From NCBI GenBank assembly GCA_040222015.1, contig JAVJWO010000069.1:64001-128000 (forward strand): 64,000 nucleotides of DNA, in the 5' to 3' direction. Numbering within the stretch: position 1 is the stretch's first letter; the number at the start of each line of letters is the position of its first letter. The DNA is from Coleofasciculus chthonoplastes F2-STO-03. GTDB taxonomy: Bacteria; Cyanobacteriota; Cyanobacteriia; Cyanobacteriales; Coleofasciculaceae. Position numbers and translations under genes: made by a program. Shown piece by piece: positions 10,801 through 61,824 of the stretch. Below the pieces are notes generated by a model. It saw nothing but the letters and a program-made list of their open reading frames with translations. It had not been told where the DNA came from and searched no databases.

Positions 10801-10892
10801 ACCGAGTGATATAAAATGTTCGCATCGGAATTATGTTTTTTTAACGCAGAGGGACGCAGAGGTTGACGCTCCAGGGACGCAGAGGGTCATAA

Positions 10893-31014: not shown

Positions 31015-31416
31015 TTTCCCAGGTTCGTAGGGGCGCACGTCAGTGCGCCCTGCACCTGACCTTTACCTGAGTTTACCTGAACTGCAGCTAACCTTTACCT
31101 GACCTGCGCCCAGAAAATCAGTTATGATACCAAATCTGTTAGGGTGACAATTATATTTTTTCAACGCAGAGGACGCAGAGGATGGCGCAGAGGTACGCAG
31201 AGTAATTGGGAGTATTTGAGTGAACGTTTTAGCGAATTATAGAAATAATATCTAAGACTATGAAATCTATTGGGCGCTCAAAATAAGTGGTTTTAAGTTT
31301 AATTATGTGAACTTGGAAATCAATGCGTAATTAATCTAATCTTAAACTCGCGATGGTTATCTAGGTTAGGCAAAATGAAGGATGTTAATCAAGAATCCTA
31401 TGGAGAAAAGTGAATT

Positions 31417-33294: not shown

Positions 33295-33720
33295 TTAGGA
33301 TTCATTATTTAGATCAGGTTCATCTAGATGTTCGGCGACGGATTGATACAAGTCGAGAACGTGCTGATCTTGAAGATGATAATAGACCTTGCGACCGCGT
33401 TTATGATACCGTACTAATCGCATGGCTCGTAGGGTGCGTAATTGATGGGAGACGGCGGATTCGCTCATATCCAGCGCGGCGGCGATGTCACATACGCAGA
33501 GTTCTGCGATCGCGAGTAGGGAGATGATCCTCAGTCGATTTGCATCACCCAGGGAACTGAACAATTCTGCCATGCGTTGGGCTTTTTCGGTGTTCAGCAT
33601 TTTTGGCTGCAATGAACCAATCCGCTGGCTTTCTACACGATGGGGCGGATGGCAATGAGGTGTGTCTGTGTCTGGATTAGCAGAAACATTTGCCTCTTGC
33701 GTGGATAATCGGATTGGCAT
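33295..33720 (-). CDS. SmtB/ZiaR-like ArsR family metal-sensing repressor
   Basis: ELCVCD box, SESAVSHQLR helix, DQH...EHLDE alpha5 site. Confidence 0.92.
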   Translation of the reverse strand: MPIRLSTQEANVSANPDTDTPHCHPPHRVESQRIGSLQPKMLNTEKAQRMAELFSSLGDANRLRIISLLAIAELCVCDIAAALDMSESAVSHQLRTLRAMRLVRYHKRGRKVYYHLQDQHVLDLYQSVAEHLDEPDLNNES

Positions 33721-33932
33721 TGAGTTACTATCCCTTGGCAGTGGAATGGTCTGACTTTATAGTAGCGAACTCAGGGGGTGTCGGGTGGGGGATGGGGAAG
33801 TTCACTCACGCGCCATGCCCGACAAGCGTTGCGACGGGTCAAAACTCCTGCCATCCATAACTCGTGGTTCAAGCTAAAATGCAGCAAATGTTCATCTGTT
33901 TTCGATGTTAACTCTGTTAGGGAAGGAATATT

Positions 33933-34991
33933 ATGGGTGATTTAGGACAATTGCCTGTCGGCATTATTGGCGCTTCTGGCTATGGAGGCGTGCAATTGAT
34001 ACGCCTATTGATGGATCACCCAGGCGTTGAGGTGGTTTATTTAGGAGGAAGTAGTAGTGCGGGGAAGCCGTTTTCTGAACTGTATCCTCATTTGGGTCAT
34101 TGTGTGAATTTGACCATAGAGGAGATTGATTTAGATAAAATTGCTAGCCGTTGTCAGGTGGTGTTTCTCTCGTTACCCAATGGTTTGGCGTATCAGATGG
34201 CGCCGCCGTTGTTGGCGAAAGGCTGTAAGGTGATTGATCTTTCGGCTGATTATCGGTTTAAGAATTTGGATACCTATAAAACCTGGTATGGGGGAGAACG
34301 CCATGACCAGGAAACTGTAGCTTCAGCGGTTTATGGCTTACCGGAATTATATCGCGATCGCATCGCTGAGGCGAAGTTGGTAGGGTGTCCTGGCTGTTAT
34401 GTTACCACCAGTCTTTTGGCACTTGCGCCGTTGCTCAAACAAGGGTTAATTCAGCCCGATACGGCGATTATTGATGCCAAATCAGGTACATCAGGGGCGG
34501 GGCGTAAGCCGAAAACCAATCTTTTACTCGCAGAAGCGGATAGTTCGGTGGCGGCTTATGGAGTGGCGCGTCATCGCCATACGCCGGAAATTGAGCAGAT
34601 TTGCAGCGATTTGGCGGGTCATGAGGTGATGGTTCAGTTTACCCCTCATCTGATGCCAATGGTGCGCGGACTTTTAGCAACGGTTTATGCAACATTACGT
34701 GACCCCGGATTAGTGCGAGAAGATTTGGCGACGATTTATAATGCATTTTACCGCGCTTCTCCTTGTGTGCGCGTCTTACCCAGTGGGACGTATCCGCAAA
34801 CCAAGTGGGCGTGTGGGACGAATTTGTGTTATATCAGCGTTGAAGTTGATCCGCGTACTGACCGGGTGATTGTTATGTCAGTTACCGATAACTTGATTAA
34901 AGGTCAAGCCGGTCAAGCGATTCAATGTTTGAATCTGATCATGGGGTGGGATGAAAAGTTGGGATTACCGTTGTTGAGTTTTTATCCGTAG
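33933..34991 (+). CDS. argC: N-acetyl-gamma-glutamyl-phosphate reductase
   Basis: GASGYGG, DLSADYR, PGCY, SGTSGAG, HRHTPEI and [11 protein letters not shown] motifs. Confidence 0.97.
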
Positions 34992-35405
34992 ATCAGGTGA
35001 TGGGGTGTAGGGGTGTAGGGGTGTAGGGGTGCGGCGGTGCGGGGAAGATAGGGCGGGTTTTGTACGAATGTTATCATCTCATGGCGAGACGAAAGTCCCT
35101 AAACCCGCCCCTACAAACCTGGTTCCCTCGATCGCAGCTAAGGGTCAACACTCCCCTAATCTCTAGATAGAGATTCGAGAGAATTTTTTTTGCTACAGTA
35201 GCGGACACGGGTATTTAGTAGAATCGATCGCCCGCTGCTTAAAATCGTTCCAATTAGGGTGTGATATTGGTTTCATGAGGGTGCTAAAAAGCTATATCTC
35301 ATTTTTTTTGCTTGTTTACGGGGAAGTCCAGATAGAACTAACTCTGTCTTTGCTCAAACTATTTCCCTTTTTCTCGTTGGATTGAACCAGGCTTAGGTGC
35401 TTACC

Positions 35406-37640
35406 ATGAAAAACCCGTTCCGTCAACATTCACCCTCGTCTTCGCCCACTCCCTCTGAACCGGAGAAGGGTTTGGGTACGTTTGGGGGAGTTTATACGCC
35501 GTCCCTGCTGACGATTCTGGGTGTGATCATGTACCTGCGATTTGGCTGGGTTGTGGGGAATGTGGGGTTGTTTGGCTCGCTGATTATTGTCACCCTGTCT
35601 ACGGCGATTACATTTCTCACCTCACTGTCAATTTGTGCGATCGCAACCGATCGCGTGGTCAAGGCGGGGGGCGCGTATTATATGATTAGCCGTTCTCTGG
35701 GGATTGAAACCGGCGGCGCGGTGGGAATTCCGCTGTATTTTGCCCAGGCGATATCCGTGGCGCTGTATACGATTGGTTTTGCTGAGAGTCTGACGCTGGC
35801 GTTTGAGGGATTAGTTCAGCATCAGCGGCTGATAGCGATTGTAACGACTATCCTGGTGGCAATTTTGGCGATCGCCTCTGCCCAAATTGCGATTAAGGCA
35901 CAATACTTTATTATGGCTGCGATCGCGCTGTCTTTAATTTGTTTGATTTTTGGTTCCCCCGTTGACCCGAATACTCACATTGAACTGTGGGGGGCGAAAC
36001 CGCAAAACTCTGAACCCTTTTGGACTGTCTTTGCCGTCTTCTTTCCCGCCGTTACCGGGATTATGGCGGGGGTGAATATGTCGGGGGATTTACGGAGTCC
36101 TAGCCGTTCGATTCCCATTGGTACCTTGGCGGCGGTGGGGACGGGTTATGTCGTTTATATGGCATTACCGATAATTTTAGCGATGCGGGCGGATGCTCTC
36201 ACCTTAATCGAAAACCCCTTAATTATGCAGCAAATCTCCCTCTGGGGTCCTTCGGTATTATTGGGGGTTTGGGGAGCAACCTTATCGAGTGCGATTGGTA
36301 GTATTCTGGGTGCGCCCCGGGTAATGCAGGCGTTGGCGCGGGATGGGATTTTACCTCGGTGGCTGAAGTTTCTGGGAACCGGTTCCGGACCCGAAGATGA
36401 ACCCCGTATTGCCACGGTGGTTACATTGGGCTTGGTGTTAGTCGCCGTTGCGTTGGGGGATCTCAATTTAATCGCCCCGGTGTTAAGTATGTTCTTCCTC
36501 ACCACCTATTTGGTGTTGAATGTGGCGGCGGGAATTGAAAGCTTTTTACGCTCTCCCTCCTTTCGCCCCTCCTTCCGGGTGCATTGGTCCTTATCTCTGC
36601 TGGGGGCAGTCGGCTGTTTGGGGGTGATGTTCTTACTCAACGCCGTGGCGACAATCATGGCGGCGCTGATTGTATCGAGTGTTTATATTTGGTTAGAACG
36701 GCGGGAATTACAAAGTGCTTGGGGGGATGTGCGTCAGGGTGTCTGGATGGCGTTGGTACGGACGGGAATTAATCGCCTCGACTATACGGCTGATACGAAA
36801 AACTGGCGTCCTCATATTCTGGTCTTTTCTGGTGCCCCGACTCGTCGCTGGCATTTGGTGGAGTTTGCGGCAAATTTAACCCACAAACGCAGTTTATTTA
36901 CTGTCGCCAGTGTAATTCCCACTGGGTCTCGTGATCCAGCCAAGCAGTTGGAAATGGAAGCCACGATTCGCGAGTATTTAGAGAAGCGGGGGGTGCAAGG
37001 GTTAGCCCGGTTAATTTCTGCCCCTGATCCGTTTATTGGGGCGGAACGGTTAGTTGAGGCGTATGGGATTGGTCCATTGGTTCCCAATACGATTCTGTTA
37101 GGGGATAGTGAACAAGCCTCTCATCGTGGGAGTTACTGTCAGATGATCGCCAACTTGCATCAAGCCCGTCGTAATGTGGTGATTTTACGGGATGTAGAGG
37201 AACGGGGATTTGGTCGCCGCAAACGGATTGATGTCTGGTGGGGCGGGTTACAGGCAAATGGGGGTTTGATGTTAATTTTGGCGTATCTGTTGCGAACGAG
37301 TTTGGAATGGCGTAGTGCTGAAATTAACCTTAAATTAGTTGTCGCCAATAACGCCGCCGCCCAAGCCACGCGGAAGAATGTGGAAAACCTGACTAAACAA
37401 CTGCGGATTGGAGCGCGATCGCAAGTGATTGAGGCAAAGGGACGCCCGTTCCCCGAAATCCTGCGTCGGTCTTCCCAAAGTGCCGATTTAGTCTTCTTGG
37501 GTATGGCGAAACCGATGGATGATTATACCAGTTATTACGAACGCTTACAAGATTTAGCTACGGGATTACCGACAACGGTATTTGTGTTAGCCGAACCCGA
37601 TTTTGCCTTCTCGGAAGTGTTACAGGAAGGAGGGGTGTGA
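35406..37640 (+). CDS. Cation-chloride cotransporter (SLC12-like amino acid permease family)
   Basis: LGTFGGVYTP, GGAYYMISRSLG, FFPAVTGIMAG, KNWRP and IDVWW motifs. Confidence 0.92.
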   Translation: MKNPFRQHSPSSSPTPSEPEKGLGTFGGVYTPSLLTILGVIMYLRFGWVVGNVGLFGSLIIVTLSTAITFLTSLSICAIATDRVVKAGGAYYMISRSLGIETGGAVGIPLYFAQAISVALYTIGFAESLTLAFEGLVQHQRLIAIVTTILVAILAIASAQIAIKAQYFIMAAIALSLICLIFGSPVDPNTHIELWGAKPQNSEPFWTVFAVFFPAVTGIMAGVNMSGDLRSPSRSIPIGTLAAVGTGYVVYMALPIILAMRADALTLIENPLIMQQISLWGPSVLLGVWGATLSSAIGSILGAPRVMQALARDGILPRWLKFLGTGSGPEDEPRIATVVTLGLVLVAVALGDLNLIAPVLSMFFLTTYLVLNVAAGIESFLRSPSFRPSFRVHWSLSLLGAVGCLGVMFLLNAVATIMAALIVSSVYIWLERRELQSAWGDVRQGVWMALVRTGINRLDYTADTKNWRPHILVFSGAPTRRWHLVEFAANLTHKRSLFTVASVIPTGSRDPAKQLEMEATIREYLEKRGVQGLARLISAPDPFIGAERLVEAYGIGPLVPNTILLGDSEQASHRGSYCQMIANLHQARRNVVILRDVEERGFGRRKRIDVWWGGLQANGGLMLILAYLLRTSLEWRSAEINLKLVVANNAAAQATRKNVENLTKQLRIGARSQVIEAKGRPFPEILRRSSQSADLVFLGMAKPMDDYTSYYERLQDLATGLPTTVFVLAEPDFAFSEVLQEGGV

Positions 37641-37659
37641 GGCGAGGGAACTGCTTAAC

Positions 37660-37738
37660 AGGAAACAGGGAACAGGGAATAGGGAACAGGGAATAGGGAA
37701 CAGGGAATAGGGAACAGGGAATAGGGAACAGGGAATAG
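37660..37738 (+). repeat. Heptamer tandem array (GGGAACA/GGGAATA)
   Basis: Directly visible; shorter copies near 33267 and 49140. Confidence 0.9.
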
Positions 37739-41102: not shown

Positions 41103-42805
41103 TTAGAAACTGTAACATAATCCCCGATCATACCTACTCATGTCTATTCAAAAATGAGTAGATATTTTAGTCGGAAACATTTTTGGCTGTCATTGTATAT
41201 AATACCCGAAGTTGCGTTGACAGGTCGAATCAATGGCTACCATCACATACTGCAAAGGACTTCCCACCCCAGCTGAGGAGTTAAACCCATTGGGTAAAAC
41301 TCAATTGGAAATGTTCCTAGCTGAATACTCATCTATATTCCATGTCTGCGTATGTGAGACAGCCAATCATCTCCTCTGGGATAATAAATTCAACAAGTCT
41401 CAATGGAATACGCATTTACAGCAGACATACGGGATAAACAAGCGCCACGCCAATGGAGTGATAGCTTTTAGCCAAGGGGCGGTGGATGCTGCGTCGGCTA
41501 ACCGTCAGCGCCACGTCAAGGTGCTAACTGCCAAATTCAAATCTTGTCAGAAGTGGATCAAAAAGACAGAACGCAAGCTAAAGAATGCTCGTAAATTTTA
41601 CCGTAGGAAAAACTGGCAAAATAGTAAAACTGGCTGTCAACTACCTCTTTCGGTGTCTATCCAATACCGGGATACTAACTGGCAGAACCTACGCTTCCAA
41701 CTGCACTACAAAAAGCGCAAGCTAAACCACTATCAATTACAGATCGAGTACCTGAAAGCGGCTCCCATTAGGGTCACTATACCCAAAGGACAAGCTTATG
41801 TGGTAGGAGCCGCAACCGAAGCCTGTGGTAATCAAAATTGCCAGTGGAATGGACAAACAATTAAAATTCGGGTTCCCTACTGTCTGGAGGATAAGTTCGG
41901 CAAGTATGTCTCATCTGAAATTGGAGATTTTCATCGGAATGTTAACCGACTGCCAGCAGAGGGCGCTAAAACCTGGCACTTCTACCGGAAGGATGGCAAA
42001 TGGTGTGTGGCGGTACAATTCACTCCAGCACCAGTCAAACAGGTATCTAGACCAATTCAGTACGGGTGTATTGGCATAGACTTGAACCCAGGTTCAATCG
42101 GTTGGGCATACATCGATCCAGAAGGCAATCTCAAGCACCATGGGCAGATATCGATCCAGATGGGTTTACCCCGTGGCAAACAAGACGCCGCCATCAGACA
42201 TATCTGTTTCCTACTTCTGGATATGGCGATTTTCTACCAATGCCCGATTGTGTGTGAGGAGTTGGACTTTTCCGGCAAGAAAAACCAACTTAGGGAGAAA
42301 GGGCGCAAGTACGCCAGAATGCTATCTGCTTGGGCATACAGCCGCTTTTTCGAGCTACTAACCGCCATCGTGTCTAATCGCGGTATAGAGTTAAGACAAG
42401 TCAATCCCGCCTACACCAGCCTAATTGGTCTGGTTAAGTATGTCCGAATGTACGGGTTAGCCAGTGATGAAGCGGCTGCTTTGGCGATTGCCCGTCGCGG
42501 TATGAGATTAGGAGAAAAATTACCAGACTCCATAACCGCCTATCTATCGGTGAACGATAGCAAGCACGTATGGAGCCAGTGGAACCAACTCAATAGTAAG
42601 CTCAAGCGCTTGATCAGAAGTAGACACGCCTACTATGGTATCTCTAACTGGGAGTTTTTGGTTGACGCTGAGCGAAGCCGAAGCGTTGACCCTCAACAGG
42701 GAAGCGGTAACGCACTAAAAACAAGCGCTTGAAGAAACTTATACCGTTGAGTTTTGCCTAGGTTTGTTTACTTGTGAGCAGATATGACTAGGTTTTTGGA
42801 AGCGG
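41103..42805 (+). mobile_element. Non-autonomous TnpB-only insertion element (IS200/IS605/IS607 superfamily); boundaries approximate
   Basis: tnpB with no tnpA; left hairpin CTACTCAT/ATGAGTAG (41134-41161); CTAGGTTT twice near the right end; GG at both putative junctions. Confidence 0.6.
41233..42732 (+). CDS. tnpB: TnpB-related RuvC nuclease
   Basis: IGIDLN (RuvC-I), IVCEELDF (RuvC-II), VNPAYTS, SDEAAA (RuvC-III); no CxxC zinc finger. Confidence 0.88.
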   Translation: MATITYCKGLPTPAEELNPLGKTQLEMFLAEYSSIFHVCVCETANHLLWDNKFNKSQWNTHLQQTYGINKRHANGVIAFSQGAVDAASANRQRHVKVLTAKFKSCQKWIKKTERKLKNARKFYRRKNWQNSKTGCQLPLSVSIQYRDTNWQNLRFQLHYKKRKLNHYQLQIEYLKAAPIRVTIPKGQAYVVGAATEACGNQNCQWNGQTIKIRVPYCLEDKFGKYVSSEIGDFHRNVNRLPAEGAKTWHFYRKDGKWCVAVQFTPAPVKQVSRPIQYGCIGIDLNPGSIGWAYIDPEGNLKHHGQISIQMGLPRGKQDAAIRHICFLLLDMAIFYQCPIVCEELDFSGKKNQLREKGRKYARMLSAWAYSRFFELLTAIVSNRGIELRQVNPAYTSLIGLVKYVRMYGLASDEAAALAIARRGMRLGEKLPDSITAYLSVNDSKHVWSQWNQLNSKLKRLIRSRHAYYGISNWEFLVDAERSRSVDPQQGSGNALKTSA

Positions 42806-42953
42806 TGAGATATGGGTGTCAACTTAAGGTGAAAGCTGGGGAAGCAGGGGAAGCTGGGGAAGCTGGGGAAGCGTCACCATAAATACAGCGCTTTTCAAGT
42901 AAGTGAGGTACACAGACAGATCCCCGACTTCTCGGAGAAGTCGGGGATCTTGC

Positions 42954-43412
42954 ACGCCGCTAACCACGATTCTCTCCTCTAGTGAAATGTTAGAACGGTA
43001 TAGCGATCGCCTGAGTCCAGAACGCAAAACCGTACATTTTCAGAAAATTAGCCAATCTGTAGGCTATATGACCCAATTATTGGAAGATATTTTAATCTAT
43101 AGCAAAGCCGACGCCCTGAAATACTCACCCAACGGTGATCCCGTAGACTTTGAACTGAATCGTGAGGAGAATCAAGCTATAATTATTATTCGCGATCGCG
43201 GCATCGGTATTCCCCCAAACGACCAAGTTCATTTATTTGAACCCTTTCATCGTACCCAGAATACAGGTACAATCAACGGGACAGGACTAGGACTCGCGAT
43301 CGTCAAAAAAGCCGTGGATTTGCATCAAGGCAAAATTTCTGTCCAAAGTAAGATTGATATTGGCACAACATTTACCGTCAAATTGCCACTCCTGAATGTA
43401 AAAAAATTCTAG
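42954..43412 (+). pseudogene. Histidine kinase remnant
   Basis: Starts just after the His box (TPLTTILSS) and joins HisKA directly to the N box (SKAD|ALKYS); the 5' end is replaced by a palindrome at about 42919-42949. Confidence 0.8.
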
Positions 43413-43780
43413 TCGGGACACGACTTGTCGTGTCCCGACTAAAGGTGATATAACCGTTGTGAAATCATCAAAAAAACGTCACTCGCCCTCTAGTCGGAAG
43501 AATCTGATCCTAAAAACTACTATAGTAAAGTGCAAGCTATATAAGCTATAGAAATTTTAAATTCTACTGTTTTATAGAACGCAATCATTTATAAAATGCT
43601 GCATTAACTATAAATAAATCTGAATAGGCTAAACACCCCTGATGTAATGGAGATAACCATGAATCCTAACCAATCCGCAAAAAAAAACTAAATATATCCT
43701 CCGATACCTTAACCGAAGCGATTAACGAGCATATTCAAAACGCCCAAGAACGTTTAGCCCAGACAGAACCTGAGGTTAGC

Positions 43781-45025
43781 ATGTCAGCCGATGAATGCTC
43801 AATTAAGCTAGCCGAAACCGTTACCGAACTATCCACCACCCTCGAAGAACTACAAGTCGCCGTCGAAGAAATCCAAGAACGGAATCAGGAACTCGCAGCG
43901 GCGCATCAAGCCACAGAAGACGAACGCCGAAAGTATCAAGAGTTATTTGAATTCGCCCCAGACGGCTATTTCATCACCGACGCATCCGGTATAATCCAAG
44001 ACGCCAACCAAGCCGCCGCCACCCTGCTGAATATAGAAAAACGGCGTCTAATCGACAAACCCCTAGCTGTGTTTATTGCTGATACAAGCAAACGCACCTT
44101 TCTCAGTCAACTCAACCAACTCACCCACCTCTCCTCCCCCGACTTTCCCACCACCCTACTGTACCGAGACTGGGAACTATCCCTGCAACCGCGCCAGAGT
44201 GAACCATTCCCGGTGGAGATTTCCATCTCAGCCATACTCAACCCCCAATCAGAAATCGTGGGATTGCGCTGGTTAATTCGGGACATGACCTATCGCCATC
44301 AAGCCGAAAGCCTACGCCAACAACTAGAAGCCGAAAAAGAATTCAGCGAACTCAAATCCCGCTTCATCCAAACCGTCTCCCACGAATTCCGCACCCCCCT
44401 GAACATGATTTACGTCTCCGCCCAACTCCTCGCCCGTTCTCACGACGGCTTAAGCGAAGAAAAATGCAATCAATTACTCCAACGAACCGATAAAGCCGTG
44501 CGGCGGATTACAAAAATACTCGATGACGTTCTCGTCTTCAGCCAAGCCAGCGCCGACAAACTGGAACTCAACCCCACATTACTCGACTTAGAACAATTCT
44601 GCCAAACCATCGTCGAAGACTATCAAATCATCGCCGGTAGCAGCAAAACCCTACAACTCAACGCCCCCGGAACCAACCACAGCGTTTGCCTCGACGAGAA
44701 ACTCCTCTATCAAATACTTGGCAACCTCTTATCCAACGCCATCAACTATTCCCAACCAAACAGCACCATAACCCTAACCCTAACCTATCCAGACCATACA
44801 GTATGCTTTCAGATCCAAGATCAAGGAATCGGCATACCAAGAGAAGACATCCCCCGACTCTTTGACCCCTTCCACCGGGCGAGAAATGTCAGCAACCTAC
44901 CCGGAACTGGGCTCGGACTATCCATCGTCCAAAAAGCCATCGAACTCCACGGCGGAACCATCAACGTCCACAGTGAAGTCGATATCGGCACCACCTTCAC
45001 CGTCACCCTACCCTTAGATTTGTAG
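43781..45025 (+). CDS. PAS-domain sensor histidine kinase
   Basis: Coiled coil, PAS, SHEFRTPL, NLLSNAINYS, DQGIGIP and GTGLGL motifs. Confidence 0.93.
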   Translation: MSADECSIKLAETVTELSTTLEELQVAVEEIQERNQELAAAHQATEDERRKYQELFEFAPDGYFITDASGIIQDANQAAATLLNIEKRRLIDKPLAVFIADTSKRTFLSQLNQLTHLSSPDFPTTLLYRDWELSLQPRQSEPFPVEISISAILNPQSEIVGLRWLIRDMTYRHQAESLRQQLEAEKEFSELKSRFIQTVSHEFRTPLNMIYVSAQLLARSHDGLSEEKCNQLLQRTDKAVRRITKILDDVLVFSQASADKLELNPTLLDLEQFCQTIVEDYQIIAGSSKTLQLNAPGTNHSVCLDEKLLYQILGNLLSNAINYSQPNSTITLTLTYPDHTVCFQIQDQGIGIPREDIPRLFDPFHRARNVSNLPGTGLGLSIVQKAIELHGGTINVHSEVDIGTTFTVTLPLDL

Positions 45026-45102
45026 TTCGTAGTTTGGGAACTTTAGCCCATCAACGCAACGCCGAACATACCAACGTAAAACATACATTCAACCTTAACC
45101 AA

Positions 45103-45234
45103 GGGCGGGTTTTGCCACAAACAGTATCAGCAAAATTTCCAATTCAATCCCTAAACCCGCCCCTACAATTTACCCGGTTTACCCACAAACAGTATCAGCA
45201 AAATTACCAATTCAATCCCTAAACCCGCCCCTAC
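45103..45234. repeat. Two degenerate GTAG-REP units between convergent genes
   Basis: CACAAACAGTATCAGCAAAATT..CAATTCAATCCCTAAACCCGCCCCTAC occurs twice. Confidence 0.85.
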
Positions 45235-46259
45235 AATTCACCCTGCTTACCCATCACCCGTTGCACACTCACCAACGCCCGATTCAACTCATACCCCTTC
45301 CCTTCCGGATGCGCCAAATACGCCAACTGTTCCTCCTCAATCATCTGCACATCCTGACGCACCAACCCATCCAACAATCCCTGCGCCGAACCAAACAAAG
45401 TATCCTTAATCAACCGCCGAAACCAAATCGGTAACTTATGCAATCGCCAAAAGGCATTCAGCGACGTAAAATGAACCAAATAAGCGCGAGTTTTCCTTAA
45501 ATTCACCGGACACAATAAACAATAAATCCTAAAATCCTGCCCCAAACTCGATACCCAATGGGGATACACATAACTCACATCCAACGGTTCCGGATGCAAA
45601 CGCCGCAGCGCCGGAAAAAACAACTGAGAAATCGACCAAATCTGATCAATTTTATAATAACTCTGCGCCTGATAATGAGCATCCACCCGATACTCATCTT
45701 CATCGATATCCATCAAAACCGGATCAGCCCAGGCTTGCCAATCCTGATGCAAATGCCCATGATACATATCCATTAAATTCTCAATTAGAAACGAATAATG
45801 GGCATTACAGTCAATCCGAGAAACCGTGGCAATATAATTCAGATGATCCCACTCCGGGAGTCCCATCGGTTGTTGAATGTCCCCATTCCTCTCCCCTGGA
45901 AACAGCCAAATAAACCCATCCTTTTCCCGCACCGGATAAGCACGAATCGTACAACTCGGCAGTTTTTGATTCTCGGCTAAATAGGGAACAAAAACACAAT
46001 TTCCAGTTGACTTAAACTGCCATCCGTGATAAGCGCATTCCAATAAATCCCCCTTAACTTGACCATGACTTAACTGCACCTGGCGATGGGGGCAACGGTT
46101 TTCTAAGGCATGAATTTCACCCGTACTATCGCGATAAATAACAATGTTTTGATGCCAAAGGGTTACGCCGATGGGTTGAGTTTTAACCTCATCGCTACGG
46201 GCGACGACATACCAATGGTTAAGATTAATTCCAAGTTGGCGAACGTCTAAATTGGTCAT
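45231..46259 (-). CDS. Rieske non-heme iron oxygenase, probable CruH-like carotenoid chi-ring hydroxylase
   Basis: CPH...CAYH Rieske motif, ENLMDMYHGHLH iron site; close to a cruE-like gene. Confidence 0.75.
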   Translation of the reverse strand: MTNLDVRQLGINLNHWYVVARSDEVKTQPIGVTLWHQNIVIYRDSTGEIHALENRCPHRQVQLSHGQVKGDLLECAYHGWQFKSTGNCVFVPYLAENQKLPSCTIRAYPVREKDGFIWLFPGERNGDIQQPMGLPEWDHLNYIATVSRIDCNAHYSFLIENLMDMYHGHLHQDWQAWADPVLMDIDEDEYRVDAHYQAQSYYKIDQIWSISQLFFPALRRLHPEPLDVSYVYPHWVSSLGQDFRIYCLLCPVNLRKTRAYLVHFTSLNAFWRLHKLPIWFRRLIKDTLFGSAQGLLDGLVRQDVQMIEEEQLAYLAHPEGKGYELNRALVSVQRVMGKQGEL

Positions 46260-46421
46260 AATTAGTCATAATTCAATTATAGTTATAATGTAATTGTAGG
46301 GGTAGGTTTATCCATTGTAGGGGCGGGTTTAGGAATTCAACTCAGCTATCACTGAAATAACTGAACAGCAAAACCCGCCCTATCTCACTTTTGTTGTACA
46401 GGGGAGAAAGGGGGGTTATTT

Positions 46422-46940
46422 TCATAATATTGTGTCCCGATCAAAATCCGTTAACGCATGAGAACCAAGGGGACATAATATACCCGTGGAAGCAAACGTC
46501 GGCGCTGTCGGAATCACAGGCGGAGACGTGGAAGGCAAATTCGTTTCACAAATCCCTCCAATCCCCTTAATAATCTCACCCGACGATACCACAAAAGCCG
46601 CCCCCGCATAACTTTTTAGTCTCGGATCTTTTGCTTGGGCAATCATAATCATACCCTGACGCGGATTCTTTGCAGGTAGCATCAAATAGCGATAAGTCTC
46701 CGTCTCCTGTAATCCCGCCAAATTTAACTCAGTTAAACTTGGGGCAAACTGAGAATACTCCAGAAAATAATTCAATTGCGCCAGATTTACGGCATTTAAA
46801 TACTCTTGCACCTCCCCTTGCAGCGCCAAGGCTACGGCTGTCTGGGGAATGTAGGGAGGCGATTCCTGCGCCTGTACCGTTGATGAGATTCCTGCGAATA
46901 AAGTAATCAGTCCTAATTTCGCGATCGCACCTTTAATCAT
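46422..46940 (-). CDS. Type IV pilin-like G/H family secreted protein
   Basis: Signal peptide; N.AQ..YFLE..F, ET..Y.Y and LKSYAGA...ICET motifs. Confidence 0.75.
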   Translation of the reverse strand: MIKGAIAKLGLITLFAGISSTVQAQESPPYIPQTAVALALQGEVQEYLNAVNLAQLNYFLEYSQFAPSLTELNLAGLQETETYRYLMLPAKNPRQGMIMIAQAKDPRLKSYAGAAFVVSSGEIIKGIGGICETNLPSTSPPVIPTAPTFASTGILCPLGSHALTDFDRDTIL

Positions 46941-47110
46941 AGCTTGTTCCTCTCCATTGGCGATAGGGGATTGGGTTTAGGAAAGTTCGGGCGGGTTTTG
47001 TTGATATGTTATCGGTAATATTCACGATTGAATCCCTAAACCCGCCCCTACAATTATCTGTACTGTTGGCGAGATTCCTGTTTAAGGCTGGTGGTGTATC
47101 AAGGGTTTCT

Positions 47111-47172
47111 GACGAATGACGAATGACAAATGACGAATGACAAATGACGAATGACGAATGACGAATAACAAA
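47111..47172 (+). repeat. STRR2-like heptamer array
   Basis: TGACGAA/TGACAAA tandem. Confidence 0.9.
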
Positions 47173-49134
47173 TCATATCGAAAAAATCCCTTCTGGATTC
47201 ACCGATAATAGCGATCGCTGTTGCAATCCTTCCCGGTGTATAATCCCATTAGCCGCCAGGAAGCCACTACTTACCGCCCGTTCCATTAACCCACAGGGAA
47301 AAGGCATTTTTACCCAGTCTCCAGCAAAAAATAGATTCGCCACTCCCGAATCAGTTTCTGGGCGTTCCTGATAACTCCCTGGGGGATAACCGGAGAAGTT
47401 TTTCTGATTCACTAACTCCTGATGTAACATCGTCGCCGTTTGTAATTCGGGGACAATTTCATAGAGTTCCTGTGCAAACGTGGTTAATAAAACCTGCTGA
47501 TTGGGAAACTCGTCTTCTTTATAACAGTAAGCGTGTAACTCTACCACACTTCCCCCCGTCTTTTCATGCCACTGAATATAATCATCTTGGATGCGATGAT
47601 ACAAAGTAATACTATCGGTGAGACGATAGCCAGATAGGGAGGTAAAATTACTATGTTGCCAAGCAAAATCTCGATCAAACCAAAATCGGGCAACGGCAAA
47701 AGGATCAGCTACGGCTAATTGTTCCACCTGCATAAATACCTGGGGATTCACCTCCCCTTCTGCCAACTTAAACAAATGTTGTACACCCGGAACATCAGTG
47801 GCAAAGACATAATAATCTGCTTGAATCGTTTCCGTAGCTACCGGGGGCGACTCTGAACTAGAAATTCCCATCAGTTGCACCTCATCCTCCTGGCGTTGCA
47901 TCAGGTTAAATCGAGGTAAATCCCGTTTCGCCGGACCCGCAATCACTTTACCTTCAGAATTATAAACCGCCCCATGACAGGGACAAAGAAACTGACCATC
48001 CCCTTGGCGTTGTACGGTACAGCCTTGATGAGTACAAGTTAGAGAAATCGCTTGATTCTCCTCTGGAAACAGGGCAAACATAGCATCCCCAGCCCCGTAA
48101 TAGTCCACAGTCTGATCAGATTCATTGGTGTCCATCCTGTGATTCCGCTTCACCCAAAATGGCACCGAGGGTTGAGTATTTCCCTGTTGATAGCGAATCG
48201 AATGAATCTGCCCATCTTGCCACTGAATCTGACTCACCGTGGCTTCCGTAACAATTTTTCCCTGTTGATTTTGAATCGCCTGGGCAATCGGTTCCACCAA
48301 ACTTCTACCCATATCCTGGCGCGTCCCATTAAACGCCAATCCCTCCGGATTCCCAAAAAAATAAAAGTGGAAAAACTGCATTAATTCGCCCACACTCAAC
48401 AGATCCGGCGCATTCAGACTGGATTTAGCAAAGGGTAAAAAATACAGATCATAAAGTCCTTGGGGAAACTCACCTTTTACCCAATCGGCAACCGATAACT
48501 GATCCAAACGCTGGAAACTATCGGGAATTTGGAAACCGCCAATTTCCCGAAACACCTGCCAATGTTTCAGCTTCGTCAAATTAATCCCCCAACGCCAGCG
48601 ATTTGAAGACGCGATCGCTAAATCTACCACATTCCAGGGAAAAGCAGAACGACTGGGGCGAAAGACTTCTGGCTGATACTGATTATCCCGAAAAACCACC
48701 GAGTAAAATTCCAGGGAACGGAAGTGATCCTGAATCTCCAACTCAGCCACCAACCGATTCAAATTATAATACTGAGGGAAAAAGCCATGGAACCCATGTT
48801 CCATCCGCAGCGAGTGATCGCCCACCTGAATTTGCCAACTGGCAATCTTACCACCCAATTGAGGCGATCGCTCTAATAAGGTGACATCAAAACCCCGTTG
48901 ACTCAACTCATAGGCACAACTAAGCCCCGCCAATCCCGCACCCACAACCACTACAGATTTCGGCTGAGTCAGGGTTCGGGGTAAATCCAGGGTATCCGGC
49001 TGAATCACCGTCGGTTGCGGTTTCGCCCAGCGAGAATATCCGATCACACTACCCACCCCAGCGACGCCGATAAGTTTCAAGGCGGTGCGTCGGGAAAGGA
49101 AAAGAGAAGTTAATTTTGATTTGTCATTCGTCAT
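47173..49134 (-). CDS. FAD-dependent carotenoid desaturase/methyltransferase with Rieske insert (CruE/CrtU family)
   Basis: GAGLAGL, MEHGFHGFF, CTHQGC...CPCHG and GLMERAVSSG motifs; SRR-containing N-terminus. Confidence 0.8.
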   Translation of the reverse strand: MTNDKSKLTSLFLSRRTALKLIGVAGVGSVIGYSRWAKPQPTVIQPDTLDLPRTLTQPKSVVVVGAGLAGLSCAYELSQRGFDVTLLERSPQLGGKIASWQIQVGDHSLRMEHGFHGFFPQYYNLNRLVAELEIQDHFRSLEFYSVVFRDNQYQPEVFRPSRSAFPWNVVDLAIASSNRWRWGINLTKLKHWQVFREIGGFQIPDSFQRLDQLSVADWVKGEFPQGLYDLYFLPFAKSSLNAPDLLSVGELMQFFHFYFFGNPEGLAFNGTRQDMGRSLVEPIAQAIQNQQGKIVTEATVSQIQWQDGQIHSIRYQQGNTQPSVPFWVKRNHRMDTNESDQTVDYYGAGDAMFALFPEENQAISLTCTHQGCTVQRQGDGQFLCPCHGAVYNSEGKVIAGPAKRDLPRFNLMQRQEDEVQLMGISSSESPPVATETIQADYYVFATDVPGVQHLFKLAEGEVNPQVFMQVEQLAVADPFAVARFWFDRDFAWQHSNFTSLSGYRLTDSITLYHRIQDDYIQWHEKTGGSVVELHAYCYKEDEFPNQQVLLTTFAQELYEIVPELQTATMLHQELVNQKNFSGYPPGSYQERPETDSGVANLFFAGDWVKMPFPCGLMERAVSSGFLAANGIIHREGLQQRSLLSVNPEGIFSI

Positions 49135-49235
49135 TGTTTAGGGAACAGGGAACAGGGAACAGGGGGCGGGCGCGAGTTGCATCTGGGTGAGGCAAGAAAC
49201 AATAATAGTGAAACCCGCCCCTACAGAAAATTCAA

Positions 49236-50009
49236 ATGAATTATTGGCATGAAACAGTCGCTGTAGCCCAGCGCATTTTAATTGAACTGGGGCGCAGACG
49301 CCGCAGTTTGGTGTTTTGGGGAATTTTCCCCATTTCAGTATTATTACTCAACGGTTATATTTTGGCAGAACGCGCCCAATTGTCGATGGCGCAAGCCTTT
49401 GAAAATGCCGCCCCTTCGACGTTGGCAGGTGCTGCCCTGTTTTTTAGCTGTCTGGGGGGTACGGTAGCGACGGTGGTGGGAGAACGGGAACAGCAAACCC
49501 TAAAACGTCTGTTCATCTCTCCGTTAAGTGGCATATCCTATTTTTTAGGTATCTTTTGCGCCCATAGCGCCATTGCTGGGGTTCAAGCGGTTTTGGTTTA
49601 TGCGATCGCAGCATGTTGGGGTGCTAAATTTCAAGGGTCTCTAGTTTTAGGCATCTTGATTATTCTACTGAGTATTATGGCGTATGTGGGAGTGGGATTC
49701 ATCCTCGGTACCCAGTTTGCCCGTCGCACGGAGGATGTAAACGCCTTGGTTGCGGCGTTTGGTGTACCTTTGTTAATTTTAGGGGGCGCATTTTTACCCA
49801 CCTCCTTGTTCCCGGAAACCTTGCTAGACATCGCCCAATTTAACCCGATTTACCACATCAACGAAGCGCTGCTGGCTGTGTGGGCAAATGGCGCAGGATT
49901 GGCGGATATTCGGGAACATTTTGGGTTTTTGGCGGTGTTTGCCTTAATTATGGTGGTAGCCGGATGGTTATCTTATCAGCGGATGCTGAGAGTTGAGCGA
50001 AGGTTATGA
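49236..50009 (+). CDS. ABC-2 permease
   Basis: Six TM segments, EREQQTLKRL..SP, FNPIYH. Confidence 0.9.
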   Translation: MNYWHETVAVAQRILIELGRRRRSLVFWGIFPISVLLLNGYILAERAQLSMAQAFENAAPSTLAGAALFFSCLGGTVATVVGEREQQTLKRLFISPLSGISYFLGIFCAHSAIAGVQAVLVYAIAACWGAKFQGSLVLGILIILLSIMAYVGVGFILGTQFARRTEDVNALVAAFGVPLLILGGAFLPTSLFPETLLDIAQFNPIYHINEALLAVWANGAGLADIREHFGFLAVFALIMVVAGWLSYQRMLRVERRL

Positions 50010-50228
50010 TACAAGATAATAATTCTTCGTAGGGGCGCACAGACGTGCATCCGTGTCAACTTAAGCCCTCACCCCCAGCCCCTCTTCCACCAGGGTAGAG
50101 GGGAGTAGGTTTGTAGTGAGGGCTTTAGCCTTTGACAATTTTGGCAACCTCCCATTTGGGATTTTTGAACTTTCAATTAGTCCGTGTCAGAAACTCATAA
50201 AATTGTCCTATTTTATGTATTAGTCATT

Positions 50229-51116
50229 GTGCTGCATATCGAAAACCTCTGTAAATCTTACGGCGATCGCCATGTTCTACAAAATCTCACCCTACATATT
50301 CCCCCCGGAGAAATTTACGGATTACTTGGACCCAATGGTGCCGGAAAAACAACCACAATTAATACTATCTGTAACTTACTCAACGCCGACAGTGGCACAA
50401 TCTCAATTAATCACCAACCCGTCTCCGACGCCACCAAAACCCTAATCGGAATTGCCCCCCAGGAAAACTTACTCTATAAAACATTAACCTGTGCCGAAAA
50501 CCTACATTTTTTTGCCCGCATCTATGGCTTAAGCAAGCGACAACGAAAGCAACAAGTCCACGCCTGTTTAGACGCCGTTAACCTATGCGATCGCGGTACC
50601 TGTCCAGTCGAAACCTTAAGTGGGGGAATGCAGCGACGCTTAAATATAGCCGTCGCCCTGGTTCATCAGCCAAAACTGGTCATTTTAGACGAACCTACAA
50701 CCGGTTTAGATATCGAAGCCCGATATGAAGTTTGGGACTTGATTCGTCGTCTCCAACGTCAAGGATTAACAATTTTATTAACTACTCATTTACTAGACGA
50801 AGCCGAACGCCTGTGTCAGCGGATTGGCATTCTCAAAGGAGGACAAATTGTCGCCGAAGGGAGTTTAGATACCCTGCGCCAACGGATTCCCGCCCAAGAG
50901 ATTGTGATCATCCAAACACAAGAAGAAGAACGTGCGATCGCGCGGGCGACAGAACTCGGTTTCACCCATCGGCGCTACGGGAATGATTTAGCTTTTTGGT
51001 TACCCGAAGCTTTGGATTTAAAAGAAATAATTGAGCGATTTGAGGGCATTTCCCTAGATTCAATCACTCGCCAACCTGTACGCTTAGAGCATATTTATAT
51101 CGAAGTGACTCGATAA
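50229..51116 (+). CDS. ABC transporter ATP-binding protein
   Basis: GPNGAGKTT, LSGGMQRR, ILDEPTTGLD; probable GTG start at 50229. Confidence 0.93.
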   Translation: MLHIENLCKSYGDRHVLQNLTLHIPPGEIYGLLGPNGAGKTTTINTICNLLNADSGTISINHQPVSDATKTLIGIAPQENLLYKTLTCAENLHFFARIYGLSKRQRKQQVHACLDAVNLCDRGTCPVETLSGGMQRRLNIAVALVHQPKLVILDEPTTGLDIEARYEVWDLIRRLQRQGLTILLTTHLLDEAERLCQRIGILKGGQIVAEGSLDTLRQRIPAQEIVIIQTQEEERAIARATELGFTHRRYGNDLAFWLPEALDLKEIIERFEGISLDSITRQPVRLEHIYIEVTR

Positions 51117-51307
51117 AGGATTGTGGAAGGCAAAGGGCAGAATGAAAGGAGTTTCGCTATACATAGGGCACGGCAATGCCGTGCCCCTACCCAATCAATT
51201 ATCCCTTCGGTTGTGGTAGGGGCACGATACCATCGTGCCCTAATCTAGCTTCATGGAGAATTGGCATTAGACGAACATGATATAAATTCTGAATACCCTA
51301 TTTCTTA

Positions 51308-51391
51308 ACAAATGACAAATGACAAATGACAAATGACAAATGACAAATGACAAATGACAAATGACAAATGACAAATGACAAATGACAAATA
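51308..51391 (+). repeat. STRR2-like array, (ACAAATG)x11 plus one variant unit
   Basis: Perfect tandem 7-mers. Confidence 0.95.
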
Positions 51392-51392
51392 A

Positions 51393-51989
51393 CTAATCCA
51401 ACTCCCGCCGCCCTTCCAACGCCCGTGCTAATGTCACCTCATCTGCATATTCCAAATCCCCACCCATGGGTAAGCCAAAAGCAATCCGAGTCACCTTCGT
51501 AAACGGTTTCAATAGTTGACCAATATACAGCGTTGTCGTCTCCCCTTCCACACTCGAACCAATCGCTAAAATCACCTCTTGAATCTTCTGCTGGCTAACG
51601 CGGCGCACCAGTTGTTCAATGTGCAATTGTTCGGGTCCAATTCCATCCATGGGAGAAATCACACCACCGAGAACATGATAATTTCCCCGATACTCCCGTG
51701 TTTTCTCCAACGCAATCACATCACGGGAATCCGCCACCACACAAAGCGTTGTTTTATCCCGATTCGGGTTACGACAGATATCACAAACCGATTCAGCCGA
51801 CAGGTGAAAGCAAACCTGACACAAGCCAATCTGCTTTTTCGCCTCAATTAACGCCTGCGCCAGGGCTTTGACTTCATCCTCTGAGCGTTTAATAATATGT
51901 AATGCCAATCGTTGAGCGGTTTTGGGACCCACTCCAGGTAAGCGTTGTAGTTGCTCGATCAGTCGAGCGAGGGGACGTGTGTAAACCGT
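51393..51989 (-). CDS. recR: Recombination mediator RecR
   Basis: [27 protein letters not shown]hH, C4 zinc finger, [15 protein letters not shown]. Homology extends upstream of the listed ORF to a non-canonical start. Confidence 0.95.
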
Positions 51990-60677: not shown

Positions 60678-61139
60678 ATGCTGCGAAAATTTCTTATCCT
60701 TTTCATGTCTTTGGCATTGTGTCTAACCACTCTAGCTTGTGGTTCGCCTTCTGTCGCCCAAAGCCCAAATCAGACGGTCAATGTTACCTCAAATGCCCAG
60801 CAGTTCCCTGATGGGAAATATCCGGTTCAACAAGCCACCTACGATGATGTTAGTGGTGAATATAGCCTGATGTTGCTAAATACACCACCCGGTACACCCC
60901 CTGTCTTGCGTAGTCCAGATTTGCGCTTAGCCCGTCTAACTGATGAGGAAATAGCGACAGGTGAAAAGACTTATTTGCAAATCGAAAATGGTCAAGCCGA
61001 TATGCACTTAAGTGAAGACTTTCGGATTGAATATGTCCATAATGTTACCGAAACTCAAAGGGAAGAAGACGGCGTTAAATTGTCATTCGTCATTCGTCAT
61101 TCGTCATTCGTCTTATGTAGGGGCGGGTTTAGCCACTAA
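60678..61139 (+). pseudogene. Conserved cyanobacterial lipoprotein, probably 3'-truncated
   Basis: TLAC lipobox and YPVQQATYDD motif; the frame runs into a TCATTCG array and a REP after HNVTETQ. Confidence 0.6.
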
Positions 61140-61227
61140 CTTGGATTGTCACCGATAACGGAACAACAAAACCCGCCCTCCCCACCAATAACGGAACAAC
61201 AAAACCTGTCCTTATAACTATTCAGCT

Positions 61228-61824
61228 ATGCCCTATAGTGAATTTACTACTATTAGTAAAGTCAAAGAAGCGTTTAATTTAACCACAGCCGAAGGGATTC
61301 ACTTTTTACCAGATATTGAACCCATTCAACCGTCCCCAACCCTGACATCCTTTTTAGAAGAAAGTTTACCCTTAGCGGCATCGGCTAGTGAAAAAGCGCG
61401 TTCGGAAGGCATTATTTACCCAGTTTTGCTGGAAGTTCGGCGCATCCTGCAACGGCGGGTCAGCTTATTTTCCGGGGAGGATTTCACCGTTGATGAATCA
61501 CTTGGACTCAATGGACGGTGTGATTTTCTCTTGAGTCGTTCCGAGGAACTTCTAGAAATTGAAGCACCAGTCTTGATTATTATCGAGGCAAAAAAAGCAG
61601 ATTTGAGAACAGGATTTGGGCAATGTATTGCTGAAATGGTGGCAGCACAGCGATTTAATCAGGCAAAACAAACACCTATTTCCACGATTTATGGGGCAGT
61701 TAGTAGTGGCACTCAATGGCGATTCCTTAAGCTAGAAGAACAAACCGTAACCATTGATTTGATTGATTATCCTCTGCCACCTGTGGAGCCAATTTTAGGG
61801 TTTTTGGTGTGGATGATGCAGTAA
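61228..61824 (+). CDS. PD-(D/E)XK-like hypothetical protein, paralog of 17639-18247
   Basis: SEKARSE, GRCDFL, IEAKK, GQCIAEM. Confidence 0.8.
   Translation: MPYSEFTTISKVKEAFNLTTAEGIHFLPDIEPIQPSPTLTSFLEESLPLAASASEKARSEGIIYPVLLEVRRILQRRVSLFSGEDFTVDESLGLNGRCDFLLSRSEELLEIEAPVLIIIEAKKADLRTGFGQCIAEMVAAQRFNQAKQTPISTIYGAVSSGTQWRFLKLEEQTVTIDLIDYPLPPVEPILGFLVWMMQ

What the first reader, a model, noticed from the sequence alone, without database searches (positions are those of the whole stretch)
43700..45800. Kilobase-scale strand-skew domain independent of gene orientation
Seen: the plus strand is strongly C/A-rich across both a plus-strand gene (44701-44760: 22 C, 3 G) and the convergent minus-strand gene (45361-45420: 24 C, 6 G). 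The kinase therefore uses C/A-ending codons and the Rieske 3' half G/T-ending codons. The REPs in between differ from sister copies largely by T>C and G>A (TATCGGTGA to TATCAGCAA). Similar patches occur near 48-49 kb and 50.2-51.9 kb, and opposite G/T-rich patches elsewhere (4741-4800: 22 G, 8 C). Inference: localised strand-specific mutagenesis (C>T and A>G on the minus strand, a deamination-like ssDNA signature), perhaps from repeated nicking and strand displacement at REPs or from local error-prone synthesis. I know of no described mechanism for this.
Basis: partly seen in the sequence, partly recalled or inferred. Interest (0 to 1): 0.72.

Follow-up and report, generated by a model that had tools for sequence, protein, structure and literature searches.

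The report
Site-anchored kilobase strand-skew domains, cyanobacteria
In this cyanobacterium short stretches of 1-3 kb have one DNA strand pushed towards C and A whichever way the genes point; this stretch is the strongest, and a weak version of the pattern flips direction at HIP1, a very common cyanobacterial sequence whose job is unknown.

Summary
Synonymous sites of the plus-strand kinase and the minus-strand Rieske gene are C/A-shifted on the same strand (z 13.4, 9.1). The gap between them is the strongest peak of 4182 intergenic regions in this genome, a Coleofasciculus-like cyanobacterium. The domain is conserved in the 8 congeners searched and missing from Rieske orthologues of other genera. 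It is one of about 400 domains that ignore gene direction and replichore.

The REP-nicking and hypermutation reading fails: the REP family explains 0.3% of the signal, and divergence is not raised.

Two other anchors emerged. A four-unit CCTCTGCG repeat centres oriented peaks (54 of 62). HIP1 (GCGATCGC) sits at a weak G/T-to-C/A switch that repeats in four other families. Neither lies at or predicts this peak, and together with REPs they explain about 10% of the signal, so the focal anchor is unidentified.

Best guess (0.4): strand-polarised recombination or repair tracts at a hot spot that has also lost a methylase cassette and grown tandem arrays. My ten open-access searches found no description. 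The HIP1 footprint makes HIP1 function testable.

The parts
43700..45900 (+). Core C/A-rich domain; joint top-scoring of 418 domains in the genome
43781..45025 (+). PAS/HisKA/HATPase sensor kinase; third positions 201 C, 128 A, 48 T, 38 G; residual rises towards its 3' end (0.24 to about 0.4)
45026..45230 (.). Intergenic peak, strongest same-sign peak of 4182 gaps (0.40/0.35). In G003, G005, G007 and G008 a methylase plus a second gene sit here, and each end of that cassette has its own peak
45026..45088 (+). Locus-specific repeat (GTAG-type palindrome followed by a CAACG-rich tail). One strong copy in G000; found at both ends of the cassette in relatives, so it is the likely deletion junction (inferred)
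45089..45235 (-). Two REP copies (GTAG on the - strand) carrying amino-ward changes; 19 exact end-motif matches at about 120-bp period in G002
45231..46259 (-). Rieske [2Fe-2S] gene; 3' half strongly skewed, fading to background over about 900 bp (0.43, 0.29, 0.30, 0.22, 0.04)
46260..51932 (+). Weaker C/A shoulder across pilin-like, oxidoreductase, ABC ATPase and recR genes of both orientations (z 4.2-6.4; ABC permease -0.2)
43408..43443 (-). 16-bp hairpin with T tail at the left edge; not seen at this junction in G001 and G003, which keep the skew
42903..43412 (+). Remnant of a tandem paralogous kinase (full length in G001, G002, G005, G007), only weakly skewed: a same-family control
43004..43200 (.). 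HIP1 pair (43004, 43193) just left of the domain edge; the next HIP1 is at 46922 (gap longer than 94% of gaps)
33300..37700 (+). Opposite-polarity (G/T-rich) domain, also seen in G007 and G008
10828..10888 (-). CCTCTGCG four-unit element; no marked skew at this copy
31148..31207 (-). CCTCTGCG four-unit element; no skew at this copy (residual -0.03)

Best explanation
The patch is an old footprint of a strand-polarised DNA process that works in 1-3 kb tracts around fixed sites. SHOWN: same-strand C/A shift across convergent genes; a peak on the intergenic gap with decay on both sides; conservation through the genus; directional substitution; no rise in total divergence; sequence anchors elsewhere in the genome (CCTCTGCG arrays strongly, HIP1 weakly). 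INFERRED: the gap is a recombination/repair hot spot where the same strand is always the one exchanged, resected or re-synthesised. Transition mismatches or lesions in the tract are then settled one way, and C and A are fixed on the + strand. LEAST CERTAIN: the chemistry. Either G:T pairs are rejected more often than A:C pairs in heteroduplex with a + donor strand (the repair preference is recalled, not tested), or lesions on an exposed - strand are fixed. The cis signal and the protein at this particular site are not identified.
For: With G008 as outgroup and bins set by G008's own skew, amino-ward changes shared by several lineages are raised in skewed DNA (T>C OR 2.70, p=5e-8; G>A OR 1.73, p=0.005). 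Private changes shift less (1.42 and 1.25, not significant). The shared:private ratio is 110:71 for amino-ward against 147:147 for keto-ward changes, p=0.02. This leans towards biased fixation. Domains also gain GC. The sharpest switches are G/T to C/A (6 vs 0 at z>10; 14 vs 8 at z>8), the polarity expected if 3' tails point at a break (inference). HIP1 sits at such a switch, and a homologous HIP1 raises transformation in Synechococcus 7002 (bioRxiv 2024.09.10.611283, passages). The focal gap is structurally unstable: cassette present in 4 and absent in 4 of the 8 genomes profiled, plus tandem arrays.
Against: The fixation signal is modest (p about 0.02), rests on 7 chosen regions plus element loci, uses one outgroup, and compares species rather than populations. 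Private C>T is also reduced (OR 0.75, p=0.03), which fits a mutational asymmetry. At z>5 the switch counts are even (110 vs 122). HIP1, 7-mers, the CCTCTGCG element and REP together explain 10.5% of signal variance and predict about zero at this locus. No RecC match was found; AddAB was not searched. Private rates 3' and 5' of HIP1 were equal, at low power. Nothing here measures recombination.
Confidence: 0.4

Rival explanations
1. Locally fixed direction of DNA synthesis: dispersed origins, polar fork barriers, restart sites or Pol I tracts make short regions always leading or always lagging, so ordinary leading/lagging asymmetry is redistributed without raising the total rate.
For: G/T versus C/A is the usual leading/lagging axis (established knowledge). 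Total divergence is flat. Private T>C is up 1.4-fold and C>T down to 0.75. Many cyanobacteria replicate from multiple origins and have irregular GC skew (PMC7198777, passages). The element's four spaced direct repeats plus A tract look iteron-like (recalled resemblance).
Against: Decay over 0.7-3 kb is far shorter than a replisome run. The sharpest switches have terminus-like, not origin-like, polarity. Private A/G rates show no net asymmetry. dnaA is present, though that does not show it is used.
Confidence: 0.25
2. Methyl-directed repair at HIP1 (G-meC model of Elhai): a nick opposite methylated GCGATCG starts a 1-1.5 kb repair tract that favours C 3' of the site. This is a good account of the weak background (about 0.4 for that component) and a poor one of this peak.
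For: HIP1 is the top switch motif of 67,941 9-mers. C-over-T is +0.026 on the 3' side, fading by 1.5 kb. The one-sided 7-mer GCGATCGH keeps the 5' G excess and loses the 3' C excess (n=1657). MutL is present. The model's tract of about 1000 nt matches (PMC4390886, passages).
Against: HIP1 explains 3.7% of signal variance and predicts about zero here. The skew stays positive right up to the next HIP1 at 46922. The 7-mer switch was not significant in other genomes (n=205, t=0.3).
Confidence: 0.1
3. One reading: repeated nicking and strand displacement at GTAG REPs exposes the - strand to deamination.
For: The peak lies on two REPs that form tandem arrays in relatives. Arrays of 3 or more copies have higher |skew| (0.072, n=13, p=0.03). 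17 Y1-transposase matches are in the genome.
Against: No oriented effect in 647 copies; 0.3% of variance. The second ancestral peak, between kinase and methylase, lacks this REP family. Divergence is not raised, and A>G exceeds C>T.
Confidence: 0.1
4. Unannotated antisense transcription or R-loops keep the - strand single-stranded, and G-richness feeds back on itself.
For: Genes at 45231-49134 are on the - strand. A terminator-like hairpin for a - strand transcript sits at the left edge.
Against: 57 of 108 extreme genes are C/A-rich on the coding strand and 51 G/T-rich. Switches fall inside genes. The element effect is similar for either flanking-gene direction. The Rieske 5' half is barely skewed. 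No stranded RNA data were seen.
Confidence: 0.1
5. Foreign DNA, small inversions of replichore-skewed DNA, or selection on codon use.
For: A methylase cassette comes and goes at this site.
Against: The Rieske gene is syntenic with the oxidoreductase in other genera, and only its 3' half is skewed. Contig-scale skew is tiny (SD 0.0085 over 40 contigs). The gradient is smooth and crosses opposite genes and intergenic DNA (rho 0.20).
Confidence: 0.05

Closest known systems
Replichore GC/keto skew (leading G/T-rich, lagging C/A-rich); irregular skew in multi-origin cyanobacteria (PMC7198777)
   Same: Same base axis, independent of gene direction, visible at synonymous sites.
   Different: Scale is 1-5 kb rather than megabases; hundreds of domains; amplitude up to 0.3-0.4; the sharpest switches have terminus-like polarity. 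The passages read treat the skew only as irregular at chromosome scale.
HIP1 and the G-meC mismatch-repair model (PMC4390886); HIP1 as Chi-like or uptake signal (bioRxiv 2024.09.10.611283; PMC13756078); HIP1 selection and periodicity (PMC5861425)
   Same: Predict strand-directed processing within about 1 kb of HIP1; the profile found here has that range.
   Different: The word 'skew' occurs 0 times in PMC4390886 and PMC5861425, and only for taxon sampling in PMC13756078. HIP1 does not account for the focal peak.
Local strand asymmetries around eukaryotic CpG islands (PMC2817419, listing and start of abstract only), replication N-domains and recombination break sites (both recalled)
   Same: Point-anchored, decaying, strand-asymmetric substitution footprints with a polarity switch.
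   Different: Bacterial, motif-anchored, kilobase scale; includes same-sign peaks as well as switches.
REP/BIME arrays with RAYT tyrosine transposases (recalled)
   Same: GTAG palindromes, tandem amplification at the peak, Y1 transposases in the genome.
   Different: REP orientation and presence do not predict skew.
Chi sites, KOPS/AIMS octamers, iterons (recalled; Chi and AIMS are also named in PMC5861425)
   Same: The CGCAGAGG unit is a G-rich polar octamer on the G/T-rich strand, in four direct repeats beside an A/T tract.
   Different: Only about 35-70 clustered, intergenic, positionally conserved copies, each centred on its own skew peak rather than following a replichore.

Membership tests
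Replichore skew | Polarity constant over hundreds of kb, switching at ori/ter | tested here: not met
   Autocorrelation gone by 3-5 kb; contig-mean SD 0.0085
Transcription-associated asymmetry | Sign follows the coding strand | tested here: not met
   Neighbour correlation in + strand terms: convergent 0.26 (601 pairs), divergent 0.24 (531), co-directional 0.28 (2391); 57 of 108 extreme genes amino-rich on the coding strand
Transcription-associated asymmetry | Unannotated antisense RNA over the domain | not tested
   No reads were laid on the region
REP/RAYT-driven process | GTAG palindromes and tandem arrays at the site | tested here: met
REP/RAYT-driven process | Skew polarity or size tracks REP position and orientation | tested here: not met
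REP/RAYT-driven process | A RAYT-type transposase for this REP family | tested here: inconclusive
   17 PF01797 matches, subtype not determined
ssDNA-deamination cluster | Strand-coordinated C>T and A>G | tested here: met
ssDNA-deamination cluster | Raised substitution rate | tested here: not met
ssDNA-deamination cluster | C>T dominates over A>G | tested here: not met
   0.136 vs 0.184 in the top 100 domains
Y-family error-prone synthesis | Pol IV/V gene in the genome | tested here: not met
   PF00817 0 matches; rang in 10 of 14 control genomes. dnaE2 not searched
HIP1 G-meC-directed repair (Elhai model) | Abundant HIP1, MutL, strand-directed effect within about 1 kb | tested here: met
   6058 sites
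HIP1 G-meC-directed repair (Elhai model) | GCGATCG on one strand acts one-sidedly | tested here: inconclusive
   Clear in G000, not significant in 205 sites elsewhere
HIP1 G-meC-directed repair (Elhai model) | Accounts for the focal domain | tested here: not met
HIP1 G-meC-directed repair (Elhai model) | Methylation-dependent nicking enzyme | not testable with these tools
   No biochemical data
Strand-biased gene conversion | Bias stronger in shared than in private changes | tested here: inconclusive
   p about 0.02, species-level sample
Strand-biased gene conversion | Raised recombination at the peaks | not tested
   Needs population genomes
Canonical Chi/RecBCD | RecC present | tested here: not met
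   PF04257 0 matches; AddAB not searched
CCTCTGCG-element peak (defined here) | Element at the focal peak | tested here: not met
   No copy in the focal gaps of the genomes printed; the HMM finds only 10828 and 31148 in the window

The most novel reading that the evidence does not exclude
HIP1-rich cyanobacterial chromosomes are tiled by a sawtooth of kilobase strand-polarised repair or recombination tracts. Each GCGATCG directs processing on its own strand, which would be a genomic read-out of HIP1 function. A second, undescribed polar signal (the CCTCTGCG four-unit array) and a few hot spots such as this gap do the same much more strongly, through strand-specific biased gene conversion that overrides codon usage.
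Probability: 0.35. Interest if true: 0.9.

Novelty: new variant of a known kind. Interest (0 to 1): 0.74.

Why it matters
HIP1 has lacked a known function for three decades. A strand-specific, distance-decaying footprint that repeats in several families tells experimenters what to measure: which strand, which side, which base change, over what range. It also bears on why many cyanobacteria have irregular GC skew, and it warns that codon usage, dS and alien-gene calls in these genomes are distorted gene by gene. The CCTCTGCG array is a defined bait for a binding protein. The focal domain is the largest natural example for a reporter test.

Tried and rejected
- REP families: seven GTAG families profiled, none with a consistent oriented effect. 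The family just after the kinase is weak (0.02-0.03).
- Degenerate CCTCTGCG element at the focal gap: a likeness by eye, but no HMM hit there.
- A CAGTGATAAC signal came from one repetitive gene (22 of 40 hits) and vanished on collapsing.
- Methylase loci: several top switches lie in genes that look like restriction-modification genes (label recalled from the printed N-termini). A motif-defined set gave flanks >0.1 in 15% (n=13) and 33% (n=6) against 8%, too few to conclude.
- Tandem repeats: own skew versus flank skew rho 0.04-0.11.
- HIP1 density: not clearly lower in domains (0.71-0.83 vs 0.78 per kb). HIP1 flanking bases add little.
- Private rates on the two sides of HIP1: equal but underpowered.
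- One control pattern (GATC with flanks) includes HIP1 itself and is disregarded.
- HIP1 switch: not seen in G010 (n=55, t=0.9), G013 (n=18), G018 (n=10) or G026 (5 sites).
- The recR-anchored replicate shares one anchor gene, and I did not remove sites near recR.
- No Rfam match in 41-53 kb; promoter scan at chance level.
- Sequencing runs were listed but none was laid, so they give no evidence.
- Four earlier-findings look-ups returned nothing.
- Genes are my own ORF calls (5398), not a curated annotation.
Full report
SETTING. The window is G000:C69:64001-128000, in a 7.7-Mb, 219-contig genome with 6058 HIP1 sites. The closest named recR hits are Coleofasciculus spp. at 97% identity. The stretch holds a PAS-histidine kinase (43781-45025, +) converging on a Rieske gene (45231-46259, -).

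All quoted counts are exact. The region's amino skew is 0.292 against a genome SD of 0.055. To remove protein effects I called 5398 genes and scored 1.89 million synonymous transition sites against codon-family means, in + strand terms. Kinase z is 13.4 and Rieske z is 9.1, with the same sign. The focal mean is 0.327 over 572 sites, against at most 0.114 in 20 permuted genomes. It is joint top of 418 domains covering 907 kb, and its intergenic gap is the strongest same-sign peak of 4182.

IT IS GENOME-WIDE AND IGNORES GENES AND REPLICHORES. Neighbouring genes correlate at r=0.26 (601 convergent pairs), 0.24 (531 divergent) and 0.28 (2391 co-directional), and the correlation is gone by 3-5 kb. 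Of 108 extreme genes, 57 are C/A-rich on the coding strand. Contig-scale skew is negligible (SD 0.0085, 40 contigs). Several sharp switches fall inside genes.

IT IS OLD AND DIRECTIONAL, BUT NOT HYPERMUTABLE. Third-position C/(C+T) in the Rieske 3' half is 0.70-0.90 in 8 of 8 congeners, and in the kinase 0.62-0.84 in the 7 of 8 where it was recovered. The nearby cheR gives 0.40-0.45 in 6. Orthologues from other genera of the family lack the pattern; one more distant locus, L021, has a C/A-rich flank that I did not follow up. The genus consensus of the Rieske 3' half has 88 C/9 T/70 A/1 G, against 42/48/65/13 for the outgroup majority, with T>C 7, G>A 3, A>C 5, T>A 1 and no reverse transition. 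Pairwise synonymous divergence from the lowest to the highest skew bin is 0.089 to 0.098 for C/T and 0.090 to 0.063 for A/G (locus view). Using the window region, six other regions chosen for strong skew and the element loci, with G008 as outgroup and G008-defined bins, changes shared by several lineages are biased (T>C OR 2.70, G>A 1.73). Private changes are less so (T>C 1.42, G>A 1.25, C>T 0.75, A>G 1.32). The shared:private contrast has p=0.02 and holds without G000. This leans towards biased fixation with some mutational asymmetry; it is not decisive. No Y-family polymerase or RecC was found; DnaA, MutL and 17 Y1-transposase matches were.

ANATOMY OF THE SITE. In G003, G005, G007 and G008 two extra genes lie between kinase and Rieske: an N6/N4 DNA methylase (PF01555, E=1e-15) and a gene without a Pfam match. 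The second gene's nearest named Atlas clusters include restriction endonucleases at 0.77-0.78, a lead only. In those genomes there are two peaks, one at each end of the cassette, with a trough in the second gene. Both ends carry a repeat that is single-copy in G000, so the G000 state is probably a deletion between the repeats (inference). G002 has a roughly 120-bp tandem array with 19 exact REP end matches. The upstream paralogous kinase is only weakly skewed.

REPS ARE NOT THE DRIVER. The GTAG family at the peak shows no consistent oriented effect over 647 copies and explains 0.3% of signal variance. |Skew| is 0.043 with one copy (n=402), 0.038 without (n=2806) and 0.072 with three or more (n=13). 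The amino-ward changes in the local copies fit a consequence of the domain.

TWO OTHER ANCHORS. Unbiased k-mer scans point to two motifs.

(1) An intergenic element of four CCTCTGCG units and an A tract. It centres a same-sign peak of about +0.2 that fades over 2-3 kb on its 5' side and about 1 kb on its 3' side. 54 of 62 copies are positive, whichever way the flanking genes run. 22 of the top 100 domains hold it in the matching orientation and 2 in the opposite. The strict pattern occurs in 8 of 151 genomes of the order: 33-37 copies in each of three congeners and 1-3 in five others, several of which also sit in local C/A peaks. Of 52 copies taken from G001 and G008, 40 had a testable orthologous site, and G000 has the element at 34. 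The other 6 map to 4 G000 loci, 3 of which are still skewed. So the element is old, and skew can exist without it. It is absent from the focal site, although the focal decay is similarly lopsided at first.

(2) HIP1 is the top switch motif of 67,941 9-mers. C is favoured over T by 0.026 on the 3' side of each strand, fading by 1.5 kb. This holds after correcting for position in gene, and for HIP1 in + genes, - genes and gaps. The switch is 0.0188 against a shifted-site null of SD 0.0013 (200 shifts), and positive in 92 of 102 contigs. It repeats in 47 of 65 usable recR loci, of 78 given, from other cyanobacteria (t=5.2). It also repeats in tiles of G022, G024, G029 and G019, four other families (t 7.0, 7.1, 5.7, 3.8), but not in G010, G013 or G018 (n=55, 18, 10). 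Control palindromes are null or slightly negative. HIP1-poor G026 shows little kilobase mosaic (SD of z 1.33, against 2.3-3.6 in G000, G022, G024 and G029), a single case. The 7-mer GCGATCGH keeps the 5' G excess on its own strand and loses the 3' C excess (n=1657), as a one-strand signal would; this was not significant in 205 sites elsewhere.

LIMIT. HIP1, 7-mers, the element and REP together explain 10.5% of signal variance in G000 and predict about zero at the focal domain. Most strong domains, this one included, have no identified anchor.

MECHANISM. I favour strand-polarised recombination or repair tracts (0.4): point anchors, kilobase decay, flat divergence, stronger bias in shared changes, net GC gain, G/T-to-C/A polarity of the sharpest switches and structural churn at the site. 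Fixed local synthesis direction is the main rival (0.25). HIP1-directed repair fits the background but not this peak. REP-nick deamination and R-loops get 0.1 each.

LITERATURE. I read passages, found by term search, of PMC4390886, bioRxiv 2024.09.10.611283, PMC7198777 and PMC5861425, and the abstract, outline and passages of PMC13756078. PMC2817419 and PMC3269016 I saw only as listings with the start of the abstract. No supplements were read; they could hold flanking-composition analyses. Ten searches found no report of kilobase skew domains in cyanobacteria, of a skew switch at HIP1, or of the CCTCTGCG element. The library covers open-access papers only. Chi, KOPS, iteron, RAYT, N-domain and mismatch-repair preferences are recalled.

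VERDICT. Real, widespread and apparently undescribed. I rate it a new variant of a known kind (strand-asymmetric substitution footprints), interest 0.74, mainly because the HIP1 footprint makes a long-open question testable.

Noticed in passing
genome-wide; window 43004, 43193, 46922 and others: HIP1 sits at a weak G/T-to-C/A skew switch, replicated in four other families; sawtooth profiles anchored on HIP1 clusters are visible in G029 (for example L416).
   Followed up: yes
window 10828-10888 and 31148-31207 (- strand); about 60-70 copies in G000: Four-unit CCTCTGCG element with A tract, positionally conserved in the genus, centred on oriented skew peaks; the two window copies show little or no skew.
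   Followed up: yes
L037:9241-11838: N6/N4 methylase plus a gene with no Pfam match (possible restriction endonuclease) between kinase and Rieske in four congeners, absent in G000, G001, G002, G004.
   Followed up: partly
L004:1-1500 (G002): Tandem array of about 120-bp units made of a REP plus duplicated pieces of the Rieske 3' end.
   Followed up: partly
window 41233-42732: 499-aa ORF with no Pfam match, found at other places in relatives and apparently truncating the paralogous kinase; looks like an IS200/IS605 TnpB-type insertion (label recalled).
   Followed up: no
G000 C134:46600, C52:100120, C40:89800, C41:55200: Several of the sharpest two-sided G/T-to-C/A switches lie inside genes that look like restriction-modification or defence genes (labels recalled from printed N-termini).
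   Followed up: partly
genome-wide; window 47110-47172, 51308-51390: ACAAATG/ACCAATG heptamer arrays are associated with a weak switch of the opposite polarity (counts inflated by tandem copies).
   Followed up: no
G000 whole genome: No Y-family polymerase (PF00817) or RecC (PF04257) match in a 99.99%-complete genome.
   Followed up: partly
genus-wide alignments: Private changes are strongly AT-biased (C>T about 0.15 vs T>C about 0.05) everywhere, while composition stays near 44% C at these sites.
   Followed up: partly
L021:1-1500 (G021): C/A-rich flank (+0.2 to +0.3) beyond the 3' end of the Rieske orthologue in a different family.
   Followed up: no
G000 C47, about 60950-62650: CRISPR-like repeat-spacer array inside a skew domain.
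   Followed up: no
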